From NCBI GenBank assembly GCA_902594635.1, contig CACJMX010000004.1:969-64968 (forward strand): a DNA stretch of 64,000 nt, read 5' to 3'. The notes beneath the pieces were generated by a model. That model worked only from the letters and a program-made list of their open reading frames with translations, had not been told where the DNA came from and made no database searches. Position numbers and translations under genes: made by a program. This DNA comes from an uncultured Pelagibacteraceae bacterium. Lineage in GTDB: Bacteria > Pseudomonadota > Alphaproteobacteria > Pelagibacterales > Pelagibacteraceae. Of this stretch, positions 3,909-16,731 are shown in pieces (positions within the stretch are counted from its first letter, which is position 1; each line of letters begins with the position of its first letter).

Positions 3909-4433
3909 ATGTTACATTTATATGTCATGCGTCACTCAAAATCCAGTTGGAGTGATCCCAGCCTAGACGATTTTGATAGACCTTTAAGTAAAAGAGGTAA
4001 GAACAATGCTAAATTAATTTGTGAATTTTTTATTAAAAAAAATTATAAGTTTGATTATGTATTAGTTTCTAGTGCAAATAGAACAAAAAAAACTTTAAGT
4101 ATACTTTTAAAGAAAATCGCTACACCAAGAAAAATTTTTTCATCAAAGAAACTTTATTTAGCAAATGAAGATAGAATTATTGAGTTAATTAAAAAAATTC
4201 CAAAAAAATATAAATCTATTTTGTTAATTAACCATGAACCTACAGTAAGAAATTTAGTAAAAACCTTAACAAAGAACCAAAATAATAATCATTTTAAATT
4301 ACTAAATTATAAATTTCCAACCTCTGCCTTTGCCAAAATTAATTTTAATTTAATTGAATGGAAAGAAATAAAAAATAATGGATTAATTAAAGAGTTTATT
4401 AGACCAAAAGATCTTCAGGACTCTAAAGAATAA
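3909..4433 (+). CDS. sixA: SixA-type histidine phosphatase superfamily protein
   Basis: N-terminal MRHSKSSW (RHG-like), DFDRPLSKRG, SSANRT, HEP, FPTSA; 174 aa. Confidence 0.85.
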   Translation: MLHLYVMRHSKSSWSDPSLDDFDRPLSKRGKNNAKLICEFFIKKNYKFDYVLVSSANRTKKTLSILLKKIATPRKIFSSKKLYLANEDRIIELIKKIPKKYKSILLINHEPTVRNLVKTLTKNQNNNHFKLLNYKFPTSAFAKINFNLIEWKEIKNNGLIKEFIRPKDLQDSKE

Positions 4434-9244: not shown

Positions 9245-9272
9245 AAAAAAAAGGGGTCTAAAAAGACCCCTT
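9245..9272 (-). terminator. Intrinsic terminator / stabilising hairpin between pstS and pstC
   Basis: Perfect 9-bp stem AAGGGGTCT-(4 nt)-AGACCCCTT followed by a T-run on the minus strand. Confidence 0.85.
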
Positions 9273-9297: not shown

Positions 9298-10329
9298 TTA
9301 GTCAGCCATTGCGACAAGATTTTTCGCGTTATCTCTAGTTGTTCTATACAACCCTTTATCTAACGGTACTAAACCAATGTCAGCTAAATAACCATTTTTA
9401 CCTATCGCTTTAGTTGTAGTGAATTCTTTTACAAATTCATGTAAACCAGGGATCACACCAACGTGAGCCTTTTTAACGTAGAAAAATAATGGTCTTGCAA
9501 CTGCATAGCTGTAATCTTGAATAGATTCTAAAGAAGGTTGACCACCTTCAATACTTGCAGCTTGAAGTTTATCTTTAGCAGCTAAGAAGTAACTGAAACC
9601 AAAGAAACCAAACATTTCTTTATCTTGAGTAAGTTTTTGAATAATTAAACTATCATTTTCACCTACCTCAATTGCAGCACCATCTTCTCTGTAAAGTTTT
9701 TGTGGCTTTTTATATTTTTTGTTTCCAGCTTCAAAACCTTTTTTATAAAGCGCTTTAGCTTCTTTTGGCATACCTTTTTTCATTACCAAAGAATTCCAAG
9801 CATCTCTTGTTCCAGAAGTTCCTGGAGGAATCATAACTGAAATTTTTTGTTTTGGTAAACTTGGATCTATTTGATCCCATGAAGTATAAATGTTATCAAC
9901 TAGTTTACCATCAACAACAGAGTGTTTAGCTAATGCTTTCCAAAGTTGTTCTTTTGTAAAGTTAACTGGTTCTGCATCTAAGCTGTATGCTAATGTAATA
10001 CCGTCATTACCGATTACGATTTCAACGATTTCATTAACACCATTTTTTTTACATAGAGCTTTCTCTTTATCTTTCATTGCTCTTGATGCATTTGTTATAT
10101 CTGGATGGTTCTCACCAACACCAGCACAGAACAGTTTAGCTCCTCCACCAGTACCAGTAGATTCGATTACAGGAGTTTTAAATCCCTTACTACCAAATCT
10201 TTCAGCAACAACAGTTGCATATGGGAATACTGTAGATGAACCAACTATTTTGATTTGATCTCTTGCTTGTGCAACAGTTGCAATTGTTAGTGCAACTAAT
10301 GATGCAACAATTATAGTTAGTTTTTTCAT
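9298..10329 (-). CDS. pstS: Phosphate-binding protein PstS
   Basis: Signal peptide, GSSTV, ESTGTGGG, PPGTSGTR, YAVARPLFFY; start at ATG 10329 behind an AAAGGA RBS. Confidence 0.96.
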   Translation of the reverse strand: MKKLTIIVASLVALTIATVAQARDQIKIVGSSTVFPYATVVAERFGSKGFKTPVIESTGTGGGAKLFCAGVGENHPDITNASRAMKDKEKALCKKNGVNEIVEIVIGNDGITLAYSLDAEPVNFTKEQLWKALAKHSVVDGKLVDNIYTSWDQIDPSLPKQKISVMIPPGTSGTRDAWNSLVMKKGMPKEAKALYKKGFEAGNKKYKKPQKLYREDGAAIEVGENDSLIIQKLTQDKEMFGFFGFSYFLAAKDKLQAASIEGGQPSLESIQDYSYAVARPLFFYVKKAHVGVIPGLHEFVKEFTTTKAIGKNGYLADIGLVPLDKGLYRTTRDNAKNLVAMAD

Positions 10330-10395
10330 TATCTTTAATCCTTTCATTAATTAATTAAAAGATGAGTGACTCGTACAAATTCATTGAATCTTTAA

Positions 10396-10424
10396 TATTA
10401 CAGATTTGTTACAATTTTGTTAAA
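10396..10424 (-). promoter_or_regulatory. Pho-box-like array upstream of pstS (three 11-bp-phased repeats)
   Basis: Minus strand TTTAACA-aaat-TGTAACA-aatc-TGTAATA; 7+4 spacing matches the known PhoB box architecture. Confidence 0.75.
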
Positions 10425-10435
10425 ATGATAACTTT

Positions 10436-11044
10436 TTAGTTGTATTTCATTGAGATAACTATCTCATTAGTTTCAGTTTCTAAGCCCCCTTTGCAAGAAA
10501 CAGGATTAGAATTATTACTAAAAGCTAGGTCAGGTGTAGGATATAAAGTAACTTCAAGTCTAACTAAATTTACAAGTTCTTCTAATACCATTGGATCATA
10601 TCTCCATTTAGGCCAATTAGATGGTGTTGAGAATATTGAAGTAAGATAACTTGTTGCCATAGTGTACCTATAATTACTCAAATTTTGATCTTTTAAAAGA
10701 TGGTCCCTAACAGAATTAAATATATTTCTGCATCTAAATGAGTCGGACATATAAGTAGATTTATCGAGCCCCTCTTTCATTGGTATAGATACAAGCATAT
10801 CCACACTATTTCTCCACCAAGATGAAACAACATCTAAATAAATTTCCTCATACTTAGCAGCAGAATGCTGCTTTATTACTGGATAGGTTTTTTTTAAATC
10901 CTCCTGCAATCTAAAGACACCTATATCAAACACGGTTAATTGTTGATTTCTCAGAATTGTTGAAATATCTAAAGAATAACTATTCAAAATTGATGAGAAA
11001 ATAAAAACAAATGAAATTAAAATACTTTTAAATATTTTTAACAT
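10436..11044 (-). CDS. Hypothetical exported protein between phoR and pstS
   Basis: 202-aa ORF filling the gap, signal-peptide-like N-terminus (MLKIFKSILISFVFIFSSILNSYS), two Cys; family not recognised. Confidence 0.8.
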   Translation of the reverse strand: MLKIFKSILISFVFIFSSILNSYSLDISTILRNQQLTVFDIGVFRLQEDLKKTYPVIKQHSAAKYEEIYLDVVSSWWRNSVDMLVSIPMKEGLDKSTYMSDSFRCRNIFNSVRDHLLKDQNLSNYRYTMATSYLTSIFSTPSNWPKWRYDPMVLEELVNLVRLEVTLYPTPDLAFSNNSNPVSCKGGLETETNEIVISMKYN

Positions 11045-11052
11045 TCAAAAAA

Positions 11053-11074
11053 TTTAAATAAACTGTAACAATAA
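11053..11074 (+). promoter_or_regulatory. Pho-box-like element, reverse-oriented relative to the hypothetical gene
   Basis: TTTAAATAAACTGTAACAATAA closely matches the plcP box TTTAATAAAACTGTAACATAAA. Confidence 0.5.
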
Positions 11075-11139
11075 TCAATAAAATATTTGTTAAATTTTTA
11101 ACGAATTTTATTCAATTTTTAACACTTTTTCAGCTTTAA

Positions 11140-12288
11140 CTATTTTGTTGGAAGATAAATTTTTATTTCTGTACCTTTGTTAACAGAACTAAGAATCTCA
11201 TAATCTCCTCTATGCTGGGTGATTATATGTTTCATAATTGCTAACCCTAAACCTGTGCCACCAATTTTTTTACTTTTTTCGGTATCAACTCTAAAAAATC
11301 TTTCAGTAATTCTTGGAATAAATTCCTGTGGGATACCTATTCCATAATCTTTCACACTGATCATTAAATGTTTATCTATTAACTTACCAACGCAATCTTC
11401 ACTTTTTATTTTTATATTTTTATTTTCCTCTGAATACTTTATTGCATTATCAATTAAGTTAGAAAAAACAGTAAAAAGTTTATCGGTGTCTCCATACACT
11501 AAAGTTGGCTGCATTAAATTAACTTTTAAATTGAGTTTTTTCTTTTTGAGAGGTAACTCAAAATTACTTTTAATATTTAAAACAATATCATTAATATCTA
11601 CAATTTGGTTTGGTTTGATATGTTCTTCAAGTTCAATTCTACTTAATATTAACAAATCATTAATTAAATTCTCCATTCTTACAACTTGATCTGACATAAT
11701 TTTCATGAATTTCTTTTGAGCTTTTGCATCATCTGATGCTGGCCCCAAAATAGTTTCTAAAGAACTTTTTATAGAGACTAAAGGTGTTCTTAATTCGTGG
11801 CTAACGTTAGCAACAAAATCTGTTTTAAATTTTTGAGCTTTTGTAATTTCTGTAAAATCTTTCAAAAACAAAACAACAGAATTATTTTCTGGAAACAAAT
11901 ATGTAGGTCCAGGAATGATGTAAATTTTGTAAAGTTGATATGACGGAAGGTTAATTTCAATGTCAATATTTTGGGTCACCTGTGTCTCAATAGTTTTTTC
12001 TATTGACTCAAGTAGTTTGGTATCTCTGATTACAGTAGATATATTTTTGTCTATTAGATTTTGCCCAAATCGCTGTTTTGCACTTTTATTAAGATATTTA
12101 ATTTGATTATACCTATCTAATGCAAAAAATTGATCTTCTAACTCTTCAATTATAACTCTTTTACTTAAATCGTTTTTGTTAGATTTGTTTTCAACAGTAG
12201 CAGTGTTTTCAGGTTTTACATTTTTTTTAACTAAAAAATAACCTAATACAATTATTACAATAACAAAAAAAATAGTAAGTAAATCCAT
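11140..12288 (-). CDS. phoR: Phosphate sensor histidine kinase PhoR
   Basis: Single N-terminal TM, PAS-like region, ANVSHELRTPL, NLIDNAIKY, DYGIGIP, GGTGLGLAI. Confidence 0.92.
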   Translation of the reverse strand: MDLLTIFFVIVIIVLGYFLVKKNVKPENTATVENKSNKNDLSKRVIIEELEDQFFALDRYNQIKYLNKSAKQRFGQNLIDKNISTVIRDTKLLESIEKTIETQVTQNIDIEINLPSYQLYKIYIIPGPTYLFPENNSVVLFLKDFTEITKAQKFKTDFVANVSHELRTPLVSIKSSLETILGPASDDAKAQKKFMKIMSDQVVRMENLINDLLILSRIELEEHIKPNQIVDINDIVLNIKSNFELPLKKKKLNLKVNLMQPTLVYGDTDKLFTVFSNLIDNAIKYSEENKNIKIKSEDCVGKLIDKHLMISVKDYGIGIPQEFIPRITERFFRVDTEKSKKIGGTGLGLAIMKHIITQHRGDYEILSSVNKGTEIKIYLPTK

Positions 12289-12359: not shown

Positions 12360-13187
12360 ATGACAATAAATACTCTATTAAGAAAAGTTAATCAGAACAA
12401 AAAATTTAATATTAATACTTATGATTTTTTTAAACCTACATTTAATGTCAAACTAGCTGAAAGCAGAGGTGAAATAAAACTTGCACAAAAACTCAGATAT
12501 AAAGTCTTCTTCTCAGAAAGAATAAAAAACCCTATATTAAATATAGGAAACTTTAGAAGAGACTCTGATAAATTTGATAATTATGCAGATCATATAATTG
12601 TAACCCACAGAAAATCAAAATTTTCGAAGACAAAAGTAATTGGCACTTATCGTTTACTTAAGCAATCTGTTGCAGAAAAAAAATCAGGTTTTTATAGTTG
12701 CGATGAATTTAATTTAGAGAATTTATTAAATTCAAGAATTTATAATAATATGCTTGAATTGAGTCGATCATGTATATCTAAAAAATTTAGAAATAAAAAT
12801 GTACTCCAATTAATGTGGAAAGAAATTCATCATTATATTAATAAAAATAATATCGATGCTTTGTTTGGTACAGCCAGTTTCTTAAGCACTAATGTTAGCA
12901 AGATTGAGGATCAGTTAATATATCTTAATCATCATCACAAAATGCCAGATAACATTACCGTCAGTGCTTTACCAAAATATAGAGTAAATATTGATTACCA
13001 AAAGAAAATTAATTTAAATATTAAATTATTTGCAAAATTACCCACTTTAATCAAAGCATATTTAAAGTTTAATGCATCTATCGGGGCAGGTGCTGTAATT
13101 GACAATAAATTCAAGACAACAGATGTTTTTATTTTTTTACCAATTGAAAAAATAAATAAAGAATATGTAAATAAAATTTTGGACTAA
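12360..13187 (+). CDS. olsB: Ornithine-lipid N-acyltransferase OlsB (GNAT, often annotated 'hemolysin')
   Basis: AQKLRYKVF, DKFDNYADH, GTYRLL, FYSCDEF, ELSRSCI, LPTLIKAYL, DNKFKTTDV match the OlsB family pattern. Confidence 0.85.
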   Translation: MTINTLLRKVNQNKKFNINTYDFFKPTFNVKLAESRGEIKLAQKLRYKVFFSERIKNPILNIGNFRRDSDKFDNYADHIIVTHRKSKFSKTKVIGTYRLLKQSVAEKKSGFYSCDEFNLENLLNSRIYNNMLELSRSCISKKFRNKNVLQLMWKEIHHYINKNNIDALFGTASFLSTNVSKIEDQLIYLNHHHKMPDNITVSALPKYRVNIDYQKKINLNIKLFAKLPTLIKAYLKFNASIGAGAVIDNKFKTTDVFIFLPIEKINKEYVNKILD

Positions 13188-13924
13188 TGCAGCAAATACT
13201 GGAGAAAATTTCAAAAATTGATGAAATCAAATCTTTGTATAAAGTTAATTACAAGGAATTAAAACAATCAAATAATTTTTGGAAAAAAACTTTAGATATT
13301 TTAAAAATAAATTATATTGCAGAAAATGTTGACAATATACCTAAAGCAGGATCAAGTATAATAGTTGCAAATCATCCATTTGGATTATTAGATGGACTAA
13401 TAATTTGTTCAATAATATGTGATGTCCGAAAGGATTATAAAATTTTAATTAACGATGAAGTTTCACAAATTGACCAAATAAGAGAATACTTGTTACCAAT
13501 TAAATTTTCAACATTAACAGAAGATATTAAAAAAAATATCATTTCTAAAAAAAAAGCAATTGAGCACGTAAATTCAAATGGAATTTTAATAACCTTTCCT
13601 TCAGGAGAAGTTGCAACTTCTTCTCTAATTTTTAATGAGGCTAATGAAAGAAGATGGAAACCATTAATTGGATCTATAATTAACAAGACAAATGCTACAA
13701 TTATTCCTGTACGTTTTTTTGGAAAAAATAGCTTACTTTTTCACACAGTAGGTTTTGTAAATAATAATTTAAGAAGAATTTTATTTATACGAGAATTATT
13801 AAATAAAAAAAATCAAACATTTAAGCTTAGTATTGGGAAAAAAATTTCATCACTACAAAACGAAAGATTAAATAATAGACAAATAGTAGACAAACTTAGA
13901 TCTATAGTTGTAAATATTAATTAG
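13187..13924 (+). CDS. Lyso-lipid O-acyltransferase (PlsC fold; OlsA/OlsF-N-like)
   Basis: ANHPFGLLDG (HX4D) and FPSGEV motifs; start overlaps the olsB stop. Confidence 0.8.
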   Translation: MQQILEKISKIDEIKSLYKVNYKELKQSNNFWKKTLDILKINYIAENVDNIPKAGSSIIVANHPFGLLDGLIICSIICDVRKDYKILINDEVSQIDQIREYLLPIKFSTLTEDIKKNIISKKKAIEHVNSNGILITFPSGEVATSSLIFNEANERRWKPLIGSIINKTNATIIPVRFFGKNSLLFHTVGFVNNNLRRILFIRELLNKKNQTFKLSIGKKISSLQNERLNNRQIVDKLRSIVVNIN

Positions 13925-14921
13925 GGGAGATATTATCGAAGAATATTTTAGCTGTTTCTTCCCAGCTATATTTTTTAGCAAATTCTAAACAATCTTCTCT
14001 ATTAACTTTTAAAGCCTTTAGAGCAGAAGCTTTAAGATCATTATCTAATGTATCTATGTTAGTCTCACCTAATATATCTTTAGGGCCTGGAACAGGATAG
14101 GCAGCAACTGGTGTTCCACAATTTAAAGACTCTAGCACAACAATACCAAAAGTATCTGTTTTGCTAGGAAAGACAAAAACATCAGAAGAAGCAAAATGAG
14201 ATGCTAATTCTCCGTTTGTTTTTTCACCTAAAAAAATGTCATTTGGAAATTTTTTTTTCAAATTGTTCAGGTCTGGACCTTTTCCAATAATAACTTTTGT
14301 GCCTTCTAATTCTAAATCTAAAAATGCATTAATATTTTTTTCAACAGCCACTCTTCCAACATAAATCCATACAGGTCTTTTGTAAGGTAAATCTATTTTA
14401 ACTGGGTTTTTAAAGGCTCCATGATTACCACCCCTTGTCCAAGTTACCATTTTATTATTATCAACCCCTAATGCTATTAATTCCTCACGCATCGACTCTG
14501 TTGTTACTAAAATTCTTTCAGCTTTATTATGAAAATTACATAAAAACTTCTCTGACCATTTTGCAGGAATGATTGGCATGTAAAGTTTCATATATTTGTC
14601 AAATCTAGTGTGAAAGCTAGTAGTAAATTTTAAACCATTTTTAATACAGTGTCTTCTTGCCATAAAACCTAAAGGACCTTCGGTTGCGATGTGTATTGCA
14701 TCGGGTTTTATCGCATTGATTAAATTACTTACTCTTGGCCAAACATTTAATGATAATCTAATCTCATTATATTTTGGCATAGGAACAGTAAGAAATTGTT
14801 GGGGTGTGATGAACTCTATGTTGTGACCTTGAGATTTTAATATTTCTCCAGTTTCATGCAAAGTTCTAACTACACCATTCACTTGTGGATAGTATGCATC
14901 TGTTACGATTAGAATTTTCAC
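13917..14921 (-). CDS. agt: GT4 glycosyltransferase, Agt-like (glucuronosyl/glucosyl-diacylglycerol synthase)
   Basis: TDAYYPQVNGVV, ATEGPLG, YVGRVAVEKN, FPSKTDTFGIVVLE; downstream of plcP. Confidence 0.85.
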   Translation of the reverse strand: MKILIVTDAYYPQVNGVVRTLHETGEILKSQGHNIEFITPQQFLTVPMPKYNEIRLSLNVWPRVSNLINAIKPDAIHIATEGPLGFMARRHCIKNGLKFTTSFHTRFDKYMKLYMPIIPAKWSEKFLCNFHNKAERILVTTESMREELIALGVDNNKMVTWTRGGNHGAFKNPVKIDLPYKRPVWIYVGRVAVEKNINAFLDLELEGTKVIIGKGPDLNNLKKKFPNDIFLGEKTNGELASHFASSDVFVFPSKTDTFGIVVLESLNCGTPVAAYPVPGPKDILGETNIDTLDNDLKASALKALKVNREDCLEFAKKYSWEETAKIFFDNISPN

Positions 14922-14923
14922 GC

Positions 14924-15757
14924 TTAAGAAGCTCGCTTTAAATCTTCTACGTTATCTTTTTTATCTATTTCTTTTTTTTCTTCGTCCTCTGTTACGAATT
15001 CTTTCCTAGCATTATCCCAATAAATAATTTCAAATGTTCCATCATATTTCTCTGCTAAAGCAGTGCAGGACTCTACCCAGTCCCCACAGTTCAAATAATT
15101 AATTCCATCAAAATTTTGATCCTCAGCATGATGAATATGTCCACAAATTATACCATCATAGTTTTTTCTTTTTGCATAATCCGATACTGTTCTTTCATAT
15201 TCACCTATATATTTAACTGCATTTTTAACTTTATATTTTAAAAATTTTGCGAGAGACCAGTAACTTTTTCCTCTTAATTTTCTAAAGAAATTAATAACAA
15301 TATTTAATCTAAGTAATAGTCCATATGCGATTGATCCTAACTTAGATAACCATTTAGCATATTTCATTACACCGTCCCAAGCATCACCGTGGACAACAAG
15401 ATATTTTTTTCCAAGCGGTGTCTCATGAATAACTCTGTTAACTATATTGATATCCCCAAAATGCATTGGTATAAATTTTCTAAAAACCTCGTCATGGTTT
15501 CCAATTATATAAAATACTTTTGTTCCATGCCTTGCTTTTCTTAAAATTTTTTGTATTACGTCATTATGTTGTTGGGGCCAGTAAAAAGTTTTCTGCATTG
15601 CCCATACATCAATTATATCTCCTACTAGATATAAATTCTCTGACCTTGAATATTTAAAAAATTCTAATAATTTATCTGCCTGACACCCTTTAGTTCCTAG
15701 ATGCACATCTGAAATAAACAAGCTTTTATATGTAATTAAAGATTTTTTTGTTTTCAT
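14924..15757 (-). CDS. plcP: PlcP-type phospholipase C (LpxH-like metallophosphoesterase)
   Basis: SDVHLG, LVGDIID, GNHD, HGD, CGHIH, NCGDWVE. Next to agt and a Pho box; the lipid A step is already covered by lpxI in this window. Confidence 0.88.
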   Translation of the reverse strand: MKTKKSLITYKSLFISDVHLGTKGCQADKLLEFFKYSRSENLYLVGDIIDVWAMQKTFYWPQQHNDVIQKILRKARHGTKVFYIIGNHDEVFRKFIPMHFGDINIVNRVIHETPLGKKYLVVHGDAWDGVMKYAKWLSKLGSIAYGLLLRLNIVINFFRKLRGKSYWSLAKFLKYKVKNAVKYIGEYERTVSDYAKRKNYDGIICGHIHHAEDQNFDGINYLNCGDWVESCTALAEKYDGTFEIIYWDNARKEFVTEDEEKKEIDKKDNVEDLKRAS

Positions 15758-15821
15758 ATTTTCTTGTTATAATTAGTGATTCTATTATAAGTAGAATCTT
15801 TAACTCAATACTACATTTTTA

Positions 15822-15839
15822 TGTTACAGTTTTATTAAA
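15822..15839 (-). promoter_or_regulatory. Pho-box-like element for plcP-agt, abutting the dagK start
   Basis: Minus strand TTTAATA-aaac-TGTAACA, with a TATAAT 32 nt further toward plcP. Confidence 0.7.
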
Positions 15840-15840
15840 T

Positions 15841-16731
15841 ATGAAATTTTGTCTTATATATAACAAGAAATCAGCAGGTGGAAGAAAGTCAAAATTTATC
15901 AAAAAAATACTTGAAGAAATATCGAATCACCACAAAGTTGATTTATTTGAAACATCGAGTGAGTCTGAAGCCTCTGAGGTAATAAAAAACTTTGAAATAA
16001 ATAACTATGATAGATTGTTAGTTGCTGGAGGAGATGGTTCTGTTTCTTTTGCAATTAATGAATTAATAAAAAATAATTTCAAACTCCCTGAAAACTTTGC
16101 AATTGGATATATTCCAGCTGGTACGGCTAATATTTTGCAAGCAGAATTAGGTATGACTAAAAATGTAAAACATATTGCTAATACGCTTACATCAGATAAT
16201 TATGATAAAACATGTTTGGTTAAAATTAATGACAAGCATTTTATTTTAATGGCAGGTATTGGATGGGACGCTCAAATTGTAAATTCGATTGATTCTTATC
16301 TAAAGAAAATTCTAGGAAAAGTTATTTTTGGTATCAAAGGTTTCCATAAATTTTTATCAATGAATAATAAAAAAATTAAAGTGACGATAGATAAAGAAGA
16401 TATATTTGCTGATTGGGTTCTTTGCTCGAATAGCAAATACTATGCTGGACACCATAAAATTACAGATACACATATATTTGATAAAAAATTTACTACCTAT
16501 ATTTTTAAGGATCTAAAAAGATATAAATTGCTTTATTATATTTATTTAATAGCTGTATATGGAAATTTGGATAAATCTAAATCTGTGATTACTATACATG
16601 TAAATGAAATTAAATTTGATGGTTTGGGAAATAATATACCTGTACAAATTGATGGTGATAATTTCGGTGAGCACAAAAAAATAGTTGTTTCGTCTTCGGA
16701 AAGAAAATTTAATATCTTAAAAGCAGCTTAA
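15841..16731 (+). CDS. Diacylglycerol-kinase-family lipid kinase (DgkB/YegS-like)
   Basis: AGGDGSV, IPAGTANIL, MAGIGWDA, QIDGD; start placed at ATG 15841. Confidence 0.85.
   Translation: MKFCLIYNKKSAGGRKSKFIKKILEEISNHHKVDLFETSSESEASEVIKNFEINNYDRLLVAGGDGSVSFAINELIKNNFKLPENFAIGYIPAGTANILQAELGMTKNVKHIANTLTSDNYDKTCLVKINDKHFILMAGIGWDAQIVNSIDSYLKKILGKVIFGIKGFHKFLSMNNKKIKVTIDKEDIFADWVLCSNSKYYAGHHKITDTHIFDKKFTTYIFKDLKRYKLLYYIYLIAVYGNLDKSKSVITIHVNEIKFDGLGNNIPVQIDGDNFGEHKKIVVSSSERKFNILKAA

What the first reader, a model, noticed from the sequence alone, without database searches (positions are those of the whole stretch)
10436..11044. Unknown exported protein inserted between phoR and pstS
Seen: an intact 202-aa ORF, co-oriented with phoR and pstSCAB-phoU-phoB, with a signal-peptide-like N-terminus, two Cys (possible disulfide) and several Trp/Tyr. 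PhoR here has one TM and no periplasmic sensor domain. In a streamlined genome, retention inside the Pho locus suggests function. Inference: a periplasmic partner of PstS/PstC or PhoR, or a P-scavenging/binding protein, i.e. a candidate new Pho component.
Basis: partly seen in the sequence, partly recalled or inferred. Interest (0 to 1): 0.7.

Follow-up and report, generated by a model that had tools for sequence, protein, structure and literature searches.

The report
Unknown exported protein in SAR11 phosphate locus
A real, conserved gene for a small protein exported to the periplasm sits between the phosphate sensor gene phoR and the phosphate-binding gene pstS in one widespread version of the SAR11 phosphate-starvation island; it belongs to no described family, its confident predicted fold matches no solved structure, and its function is still unknown.

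Summary
The ORF at 10436-11044 (minus strand, 202 aa) is intact and co-oriented with phoR and pstSCAB-phoU-phoB. It has a cleavable Sec signal peptide and two Cys that are invariant across the family, and it is under purifying selection (dN/dS 0.08-0.27).

It founds a small unannotated family. There is no Pfam, NCBIfam, PHROGs or PDB sequence hit, and only 21 representatives among 1.8 billion proteins. Two AlphaFold models (pLDDT 88 and 90.5) find no Foldseek match in PDB or BFVD.

In Pelagibacteraceae, 54 of 55 genomes carrying it have it directly upstream of pstS. In the genus it tracks one locus version perfectly: 41 of 41 genomes with an HTCC7211-type PstS have it, and 0 of 35 with the divergent version do.

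More distant homologs lie in unrelated contexts. These are in a second Pelagibacterales family, in Niveispirillum and in metagenomic alphaproteobacteria.

Its own Pho box is weak in this genome (16/21) and stronger in relatives (17-19/21). In two genera the gene overlaps phoR.

Best reading: an auxiliary periplasmic protein, probably non-enzymatic, that is co-regulated with the phosphate-starvation island. A direct Pst or PhoR partnership is neither shown nor excluded.

The parts
10436..11044 (-). orf202: CDS of the unknown exported protein (202 aa plus stop)
   Evidence: Intact ORF. There are 171-189 homolog clusters. dN/dS is 0.08-0.27. No Pfam, NCBIfam or PHROGs family matches.
10973..11044 (-). 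Sec signal peptide (residues 1-24, predicted cleavage after NSYS)
   Evidence: Sequence inspection shows the n-h-c layout with small residues at -1 and -3. The layout is conserved in all aligned homologs. This part of the model is a helix of lower confidence.
10439..10972 (-). Mature periplasmic alpha/beta domain (178 aa) with the invariant Cys pair C105 (10730-10732) and C184 (10493-10495)
   Evidence: AlphaFold2 model of the mature domain has pLDDT 90.5 and pTM 0.86. Invariant columns are listed. Foldseek finds no match in PDB or BFVD.
11045..11139 (-). phoR-orf202 spacer (95 nt). It contains a conserved block TTTAACAAATATTTTATTGAT (11074-11094) at about -50 to -30 from the ATG. No terminator lies in the spacer.
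   Evidence: The block is conserved in 7 lineages whose synonymous sites are saturated. As a Pho box it scores only 12/14 (double) or 16/21 (triple) in this genome. No terminator-like site was found.
10348..10435 (-). orf202-pstS spacer carrying the triple Pho box TTTAACA-N4-TGTAACA-N4-TGTAATA (10396-10424). The box starts 11 nt after the orf202 stop codon.
   Evidence: The box is conserved in genera g1, g2 and g5. It provides two of only 7 perfect 14/14 sites in the 1.25-Mb genome, and the only 21/21 triple.
11140..12288 (-). phoR: histidine kinase with a single N-terminal membrane helix and no periplasmic domain
   Evidence: HisKA and HATPase_c domains, with best NCBIfam matches PnpS and PhoR. 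Hydropathy analysis.
9298..10347 (-). pstS: HTCC7211-type phosphate-binding protein
   Evidence: PBP_like_2 domain. About 90% identical to PDB chain 9jwy_A. Followed by a terminator-like hairpin at 9251-9272.

Best explanation
orf202 encodes a protein exported by the Sec pathway and cleaved by signal peptidase I. The mature product is a soluble periplasmic single-domain alpha/beta protein of about 178 residues, held by one conserved disulfide (C105-C184).

It is the founding example of an unannotated, sparsely distributed alphaproteobacterial family. In Pelagibacteraceae this family member is a fixed accessory gene of one version of the flexible phosphate-starvation island, the HTCC7211 type. 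That island runs plcP-agt-(olsBA)-phoR-orf202-pstSCAB-phoU-phoB-ppk-ppx.

The gene is transcribed either by read-through from phoR or from its own weak promoter that carries a degenerate PhoB-type repeat. It lies upstream of the strong pstS Pho-box promoter and is not part of that promoter's transcript.

The most likely role is an auxiliary, non-enzymatic periplasmic protein (a ligand-binding or adaptor protein) made together with the phosphate-starvation machinery. It is dispensable for Pst/PhoR function as such.

Shown: the gene is real, its product has the features of an exported protein, and its position is conserved. Inferred: its regulation by phosphate and its biochemical role.
For: - Export and disulfide: signal-peptide layout and two invariant Cys.
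- Real and selected: dN/dS 0.08-0.27; the exact protein is on 547 contigs.
- Confident single-domain models: pLDDT 88 and 90.5, pTM 0.78 and 0.86.
- Position: 54 of 55 Pelagibacteraceae genomes that carry it have it no more than about 130 bp upstream of pstS (coordinates; loci). It is kept there in four genera down to 35% identity.
- Locus version: in genus g1 it is present in 41 of 41 genomes with PstS at least 85% identical to the window's, and in 0 of 35 with PstS at most 66% identical.
- Link to phoR: in genera g2 and g4 phoR overlaps its start by 17 nt. No terminator lies between phoR, orf202 and pstS.
- Own promoter: a 21-nt upstream block is conserved although dS exceeds 1. Triple Pho-like arrays score 17-19/21 upstream of the gene in 8 of 14 lineages, where about 0.01 is expected per 100 nt. 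The best, 19/21, is in G001, where phoR is not upstream.
- Probably not an enzyme: no conserved His, nucleophile triad or metal-binding motif. The conserved polar residues are D40, R45, D49, K/R104, K/R106 and Y133.
Against: - In this genome the upstream repeat scores only 16/21 (12/14 as a double). The genome holds 969 sites scoring exactly 12/14 and 95 scoring higher.
- Distant homologs lie in contexts unrelated to phosphate: AtuA with an ABC ATPase and an acyl-CoA ligase; two alpha/beta hydrolases; GlcDEF-like genes with an SDR; TauD with a thioesterase.
- SAR11 gene order is generally very stable, so retention at one place is weaker evidence of function than it would be elsewhere.
- No expression, binding or interaction data exist.
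- 'Non-enzymatic' rests only on the absence of recognisable catalytic motifs.
Confidence: 0.5

Rival explanations
1. Direct Pho component. The periplasmic protein docks on PstS or on the periplasmic face of PstC/PstA, or it signals to PhoR through the transporter. It would tune high-affinity uptake or sensing, or itself bind phosphate or a phosphate analogue.
For: - It sits immediately next to pstS in 54 of 55 genomes, and it overlaps phoR in g2 and g4.
- It stays with pstS when phoR has moved to the other end of the cluster (G001, G017).
- It stays with phoR when pstS is 15 kb away (G159).
- Conserved Arg/Lys, Asp and Tyr residues could form an anion site.
Against: - PhoR has no periplasmic part to contact.
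- 35 Pelagibacter species run phoR-pstS without the gene.
- The conserved residues are equally conserved in homologs from non-Pho contexts.
- Isoelectric point ranges from 4.6 to 9.8 across the family.
- No interaction test could be run.
Confidence: 0.2
2. Passenger gene. It is a general periplasmic or envelope protein with no role in phosphate physiology, carried along in one version of a flexible genomic island and kept in place by SAR11's rigid synteny.
For: - Family members elsewhere have no pho neighbours.
- The gene is dispensable within the genus.
- Its own Pho box is weak in this genome.
- Published work already describes two versions of the SAR11 pst/pho cluster, less than 60% identical, at the same island position (PMC7318151).
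Against: - The position is kept in four genera down to 35% identity, with purifying selection throughout.
- It overlaps phoR in g2 and g4.
- G001 has a 19/21 Pho-like array upstream of the gene.
- The other genes of the 16-kb block that could be assigned are phosphate-related.
Confidence: 0.2
3. Envelope-lipid helper. It is a periplasmic protein that binds lipids or acyl compounds and assists the phosphate-starvation membrane remodelling encoded next door (PlcP, Agt, OlsB and its acyltransferase partner, and a diacylglycerol kinase).
For: - In type A loci the lipid-remodelling genes lie directly upstream of phoR.
- Several unrelated contexts of the family include acyl- or lipid-type enzymes: an acyl-CoA ligase, alpha/beta hydrolases, a nearby LplT-Aas fusion and a thioesterase.
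- In the second Pelagibacterales family the phoR-pstS slot is filled by a TMEM164-family membrane protein. From my own knowledge, this family includes a lipid acyltransferase in humans.
Against: - AMP-binding and alpha/beta-hydrolase genes are among the commonest in alphaproteobacteria, so the theme may be chance.
- Other contexts (GlcDEF-like, TauD) do not fit.
- Foldseek found no known lipid-carrier fold.
Confidence: 0.07
4. Periplasmic phosphate-scavenging enzyme, i.e. a new phosphatase or phosphodiesterase.
For: It lies in the Pho locus, it is exported, and SAR11 lacks the classical PhoA/PhoX/PhoD phosphatases (the last point is from my own knowledge).
Against: - No Pfam or NCBIfam phosphatase match.
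- No conserved His, no metal-binding or nucleophile motif, and few invariant polar residues.
- Homologs lie in non-phosphate contexts.
Confidence: 0.03

Closest known systems
PsiF of Escherichia coli (phoA-psiF operon; Pfam PsiF repeat). Recalled from my own knowledge.
   Same: A small Sec-exported protein of unknown function, encoded inside a Pho-regulon operon next to a major periplasmic phosphate-acquisition protein.
   Different: No sequence relationship: no Pfam family was hit at E<=1 by the window protein, nor at E<=0.1 by any of the 38 members. The size (178 aa mature) and fold differ. orf202 has its own family and one conserved disulfide.
Versions of the flexible phosphate genomic island in streamlined marine alphaproteobacteria: fGIp versions A-H in HIMB59 (PMC10734472), and the two pst/pho cluster versions, less than 60% identical, in SAR11 genomospecies (PMC7318151).
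   Same: A phosphate-acquisition island at a fixed genomic position exists in alternative versions. The versions differ in accessory genes, including 'hypothetical proteins'. orf202 is such a version-specific accessory gene.
   Different: In the passages retrieved, those papers neither single out nor characterise this gene. Here its family, export signals, fold prediction and distribution are defined.
PstS of Candidatus Pelagibacter sp. HTCC7211 (CpPstS, PDB 9JWY; PMC12421899)
   Same: A periplasmic protein of the same locus type. The window's PstS is about 90% identical to it.
   Different: orf202 is not a periplasmic binding protein. It has no PBP_like_2 match, is half the size and has a different secondary-structure order. 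The passages of that paper that were retrieved describe the HTCC7211 system as PstSCAB with PhoB/PhoU and do not mention this gene.
TMEM164-family membrane protein between phoR and pstS in the second Pelagibacterales family (L042 8135-8857)
   Same: It occupies the same phoR-pstS slot, co-oriented with both genes.
   Different: It is a polytopic membrane protein of a described Pfam family (PF14808) and is unrelated to orf202.

Membership tests
Sec-exported soluble periplasmic protein (signal peptidase I substrate) | N-terminal positive n-region, a hydrophobic h-region of about 12-15 residues, and a c-region with small residues at -1 and -3 | tested here: met
   The N-terminus MLKIFK-SILISFVFIFSSIL-NSYS|LD shows this layout, and so does every aligned homolog. 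SignalP itself was not available.
Bacterial lipoprotein | Lipobox with an invariant Cys at +1 of the mature protein | tested here: not met
   There is no Cys in residues 1-40. The only Cys are C105 and C184.
PsiF (Pho-regulated periplasmic protein, Pfam PsiF repeat) | Match to the PsiF repeat profile | tested here: not met
   The window protein hits no Pfam family at E<=1. None of the 38 members hits PsiF at E<=0.1.
PstS / type 2 periplasmic binding proteins | PBP_like_2 (PF12849) or TIGR02136 profile match, and a two-lobe fold | tested here: not met
   There is no profile match. The model is a single domain of 178 aa. Foldseek finds no PBP hit.
Periplasmic phosphatases PhoA / PhoX / PhoD / metallophosphoesterases | Profile match and conserved metal-binding or nucleophile residues | tested here: not met
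   There is no Pfam or NCBIfam match. No His is conserved, and the invariant polar residues are only D40 and D49.
Pho regulon member | PhoB-type direct repeats (7 nt at an 11-nt period) at the promoter | tested here: inconclusive
   The window scores 16/21 as a triple and 12/14 as a double; the genome holds 969 sites scoring exactly 12/14. Relatives score 17-19/21, where about 0.01 is expected per 100 nt. A 21-nt block is conserved.
Pho regulon member | Induction on phosphate starvation | not testable with these tools
Carini et al. 2014 (HTCC7211 microarrays) is not held.
Pfam, NCBIfam, PHROGs or PDB-represented families in general | Any significant sequence or structure match | tested here: not met
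   Searches return nothing significant. The best Foldseek result is E=0.02 with TM<=0.34. AlphaFold DB was not available.

The most novel reading that the evidence does not exclude
orf202 is a previously unrecognised periplasmic component of high-affinity phosphate acquisition in the HTCC7211-type SAR11 lineages that dominate phosphate-poor oceans. It would be a protein of a new fold that captures, buffers or hands over phosphate (or discriminates it from arsenate) for PstS, or that modulates Pst-dependent signalling to the anchor-only PhoR. This would give a molecular handle on the proposed periplasmic phosphate buffer of oligotrophic bacterioplankton.
Probability: 0.12. Interest if true: 0.85.

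Novelty: new variant of a known kind. Interest (0 to 1): 0.5.

Why it matters
SAR11 is the most abundant heterotrophic bacterial group in the ocean, and phosphate limitation shapes its biogeography. The Pst/Pho island of HTCC7211-type strains has been treated as fully understood (pstSCAB, phoU, phoB, phoR). Yet it carries a conserved, selected, exported protein that no database describes and whose confident model resembles no solved structure.

If the protein takes part in phosphate capture or sensing, it is a missing part of a globally important nutrient-uptake system. If it does not, it is still a clean marker of one island version and a candidate new fold that is easy to express and solve.

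Tried and rejected
- Correlation between the PhoR membrane anchor and orf202: rejected. Type B loci without orf202 have the same single-helix PhoR. PhoR in g2 and g3 seems to have two helices, and PhoR in the second Pelagibacterales family is soluble.
- A strong Pho box of its own in this genome: not supported. The site scores 12/14, and the genome holds 969 sites scoring exactly 12/14.
- The reverse-oriented box noted by another reader at 11053-11074 also scores 12/14, and its TGTAACA half-site is not conserved in relatives (read).
- Family and structure searches gave nothing: Pfam, NCBIfam, PHROGs, a PDB sequence profile, and Foldseek against PDB (two models) and BFVD.
- Carini 2014 is not held. 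Literature searches found no paper that mentions this gene.
- A 'lipid theme' across the contexts of the family was considered and kept only as a low-probability rival, because further contexts did not fit.
- Model coordinates are not exposed, so the Cys-Cys distance, pockets and clustering of the conserved Arg/Lys/Asp residues could not be checked.

Full report
**1. Observation**

The window is AT-rich (about 28% G+C) and lies in a 1.25-Mb genome of the order Pelagibacterales. Named relatives of the proteins are Pelagibacter or Pelagibacterales.

ORF 10436-11044 on the minus strand is intact and 202 aa long. It lies between phoR (11140-12288) and pstS (9298-10347). Downstream on the same strand follow pstC, pstA, pstB, phoU and phoB, and then ppk and ppx.

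The N-terminus, MLKIFK-SILISFVFIFSSIL-NSYS|LD, has the n-, h- and c-regions of a signal peptidase I substrate and no lipobox Cys. PhoR has a single N-terminal hydrophobic helix followed directly by its cytoplasmic domains.

**2. A real, selected gene of an unannotated family**

No Pfam, NCBIfam or PHROGs model matches the window protein or any of 38 family members. A family profile finds nothing among PDB sequences.

The family is small:
- 171-189 clusters at 90% identity among 5.8 billion proteins.
- Only 21 representatives at E<=0.001 among 1.84 billion 50%-identity clusters.

All names given by the sources are 'hypothetical protein'. The exact window protein occurs on 547 public contigs, so it is common in ocean data.

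Alignments show these invariant residues: D40, G42, D49, C105, L116, Y133, F138, L157, L163, P169 and C184. R45, K/R104 and K/R106 are conserved as basic residues. There are exactly two Cys in every clear family member; one borderline homolog (L059, E about 2e-4) lacks the first.

Pairwise dN/dS is 0.08-0.27. For the unsaturated pair L004/L014, dN is 0.058, dS 0.67 and omega 0.087. This is comparable to phoR and somewhat higher than pstS.

**3. Structure**

- The full-length AlphaFold2 model, built on 38 sequences, has pLDDT 88 and pTM 0.78.
- The mature-domain model, built on 51 sequences, has pLDDT 90.5 and pTM 0.86.

Both give one alpha/beta domain with five strands and about six helices. 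C105 lies in the long central helix and C184 in a C-terminal strand.

Foldseek finds no match at E<=0.001 in the PDB with either model, nor in BFVD. The best TM-score, normalised to the query, is 0.34. AlphaFold DB was not available, so the most I can claim is that the fold has no solved relative detectable by Foldseek.

**4. Distribution and context**

Overall, 64 of 201 sampled Pelagibacterales genomes have a homolog.

*Family f1 (Pelagibacteraceae).* 55 genomes in four genera carry it, at 35-100% identity. In 54 of them the gene ends about 90-130 bp upstream of pstS (coordinates; 31 loci inspected). The exception is G159, where the phoR-orf pair is intact but the nearest pstS is 15 kb away.

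In G001 and G017, phoR lies at the other end of the cluster, convergent with phoB, while the orf stays in front of pstS.

In genera g2 and g4, phoR overlaps the orf start by 17 nt.

*Genus g1.* Presence tracks the locus version perfectly. All 41 genomes with PstS at least 85% identical to the window's have the gene. All 35 with a PstS of 55-66% identity lack it, and the five such loci inspected have phoR about 115-125 bp from pstS.

The window's PstS is about 90% identical to PDB 9jwy_A, which I take to be the HTCC7211 PstS of PMC12421899. I therefore call this version 'HTCC7211-type'. Two pst/pho versions, less than 60% identical, at the same island position have been published for SAR11 genomospecies (PMC7318151). 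Version-specific 'hypothetical proteins' are described for the analogous HIMB59 island (PMC10734472).

*Family f2 (a second Pelagibacterales family).* Homologs of 27-28% identity lie about 27-30 kb from pstS. They sit after an AtuA gene and before an ABC ATPase, an acyl-CoA-ligase-like gene and two binding proteins. There the phoR-pstS slot holds a TMEM164-family membrane protein instead.

*Outside the order.* A class-wide sample of 401 genomes gave six further hits at E<=0.001, four of them strong (E<=3.5e-16):
- Niveispirillum and relatives: after two alpha/beta hydrolases.
- One metagenomic member: between GlcDEF-like genes and an SDR.
- One: near TauD and a thioesterase.
- One: near an LplT-Aas-type fusion.

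The family as such is therefore not phosphate-specific. The phosphate link is a property of the Pelagibacteraceae branch.

**5. Regulation**

The spacer after the orf202 stop carries TTTAACA-N4-TGTAACA-N4-TGTAATA. This triple box is conserved across g1, g2 and g5. With the half-site written as T[GT]TAA[CT]A, the whole genome has only 7 perfect double sites. Two of them are the pstS array and one lies before plcP. The pstS array is the only 21/21 triple in the genome. orf202 is therefore upstream of the pstS promoter and not part of its transcript.

No terminator-like hairpin separates phoR, orf202 and pstS, whereas one follows pstS.

Upstream of orf202, a 21-nt block (TTTAACAnnTcTTTnnTTGAt, at about -50 to -30) is conserved in seven lineages whose synonymous sites are saturated. 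As a Pho box it is weak in this genome: 12/14 as a double (969 sites score exactly 12/14 genome-wide) and 16/21 as a triple.

Eight of 14 lineages have triples of 17-19/21 at the equivalent place, where about 0.01 is expected per 100 nt. The best, 19/21, is in G001, where phoR is not upstream.

I read this as a weak promoter that is possibly assisted by PhoB, in addition to read-through from phoR.

**6. Interpretation**

The shown facts are export features, a conserved disulfide pair, purifying selection, a confident fold with no solved relative, and a fixed position in one island version.

The inferred steps are these:
- Co-regulation with the phosphate-starvation response. This rests on position, the overlap with phoR, and the degenerate repeats.
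- A non-enzymatic role. This rests on the absence of catalytic-type conservation.
- Dispensability for the core Pst/PhoR function. This rests on the 35 species that lack the gene.

A direct partnership with PstS, PstCA or PhoR remains possible but has no positive evidence. PhoR offers no periplasmic surface, and its anchor does not co-vary with the gene. The passenger-gene reading and a lipid-handling reading are kept as rivals.

**7. Novelty**

The system, a Pho/Pst island in alternative versions, is known. The component is not: it is an undescribed protein family with no structural relative in the PDB, embedded in the phosphate locus of a globally dominant bacterium. I rate it a new variant of a known kind, with moderate interest (0.5).

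Noticed in passing
L042 8135-8857 (G002) and L043 (G026): In the second Pelagibacterales family, the slot between phoR and pstS holds a 240-aa polytopic membrane protein of the TMEM164 family (PF14808, E=6e-37). PhoR there has no membrane helix at all.
   Followed up: partly
G000 C1:496883-499536 (locus L066 384-3037): One of only 7 perfect Pho-box double sites in the genome (TTTAATA-N4-TTTAACA) lies 66 nt upstream of a DUF1800-DUF1501 gene pair. This is a candidate further Pho-regulon operon outside the island.
   Followed up: partly
L045 4845-5887 (G183): phoR is split into two ORFs (220 aa and 114 aa) in this complete type B genome. It is probably a frameshifted sensor kinase.
   Followed up: no
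L046 (G111): This is a minimal island version at the same chromosomal position. The order is ilvD-manC, then directly pstSCAB-phoU, then ppk-ppx. There is no phoR, phoB, orf202 or lipid-remodelling gene.
   Followed up: no
window 9298-12288 and loci L004, L014, L018, L021, L022, L033: Divergence within the locus is mosaic. For L004 versus L033, dS is 0.25 for pstS but 1.16 for orf202 and 1.58 for phoR. For L021 versus L022, dN is 0.33 for phoR but 0.10 for orf202. This suggests recombination breakpoints on both sides of orf202.
   Followed up: partly
window 12360-16731: The genes directly upstream of phoR are lipid-type: an OlsB-like N-acyltransferase (PF13444), an acyltransferase (PF19576 and PF01553), a 334-aa ORF that I take to be the glycosyltransferase Agt from position and length (no profile search run), a PlcP-like metallophosphoesterase (PF00149) with a perfect Pho box at 15822-15839, and a 327-aa ORF that other readers' notes call a diacylglycerol kinase (not scanned here).
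   Followed up: partly
window 9251-9272: A 9-bp G+C-rich hairpin followed by a T run lies directly after pstS. It is a likely attenuating terminator that would give a pstS transcript more abundant than pstCAB.
   Followed up: no
window 3909-4433: A 174-aa plus-strand ORF lies between ppk and phoB and overlaps the phoB 3' end. Another reader called it SixA (phosphohistidine phosphatase). I did not analyse it.
   Followed up: no
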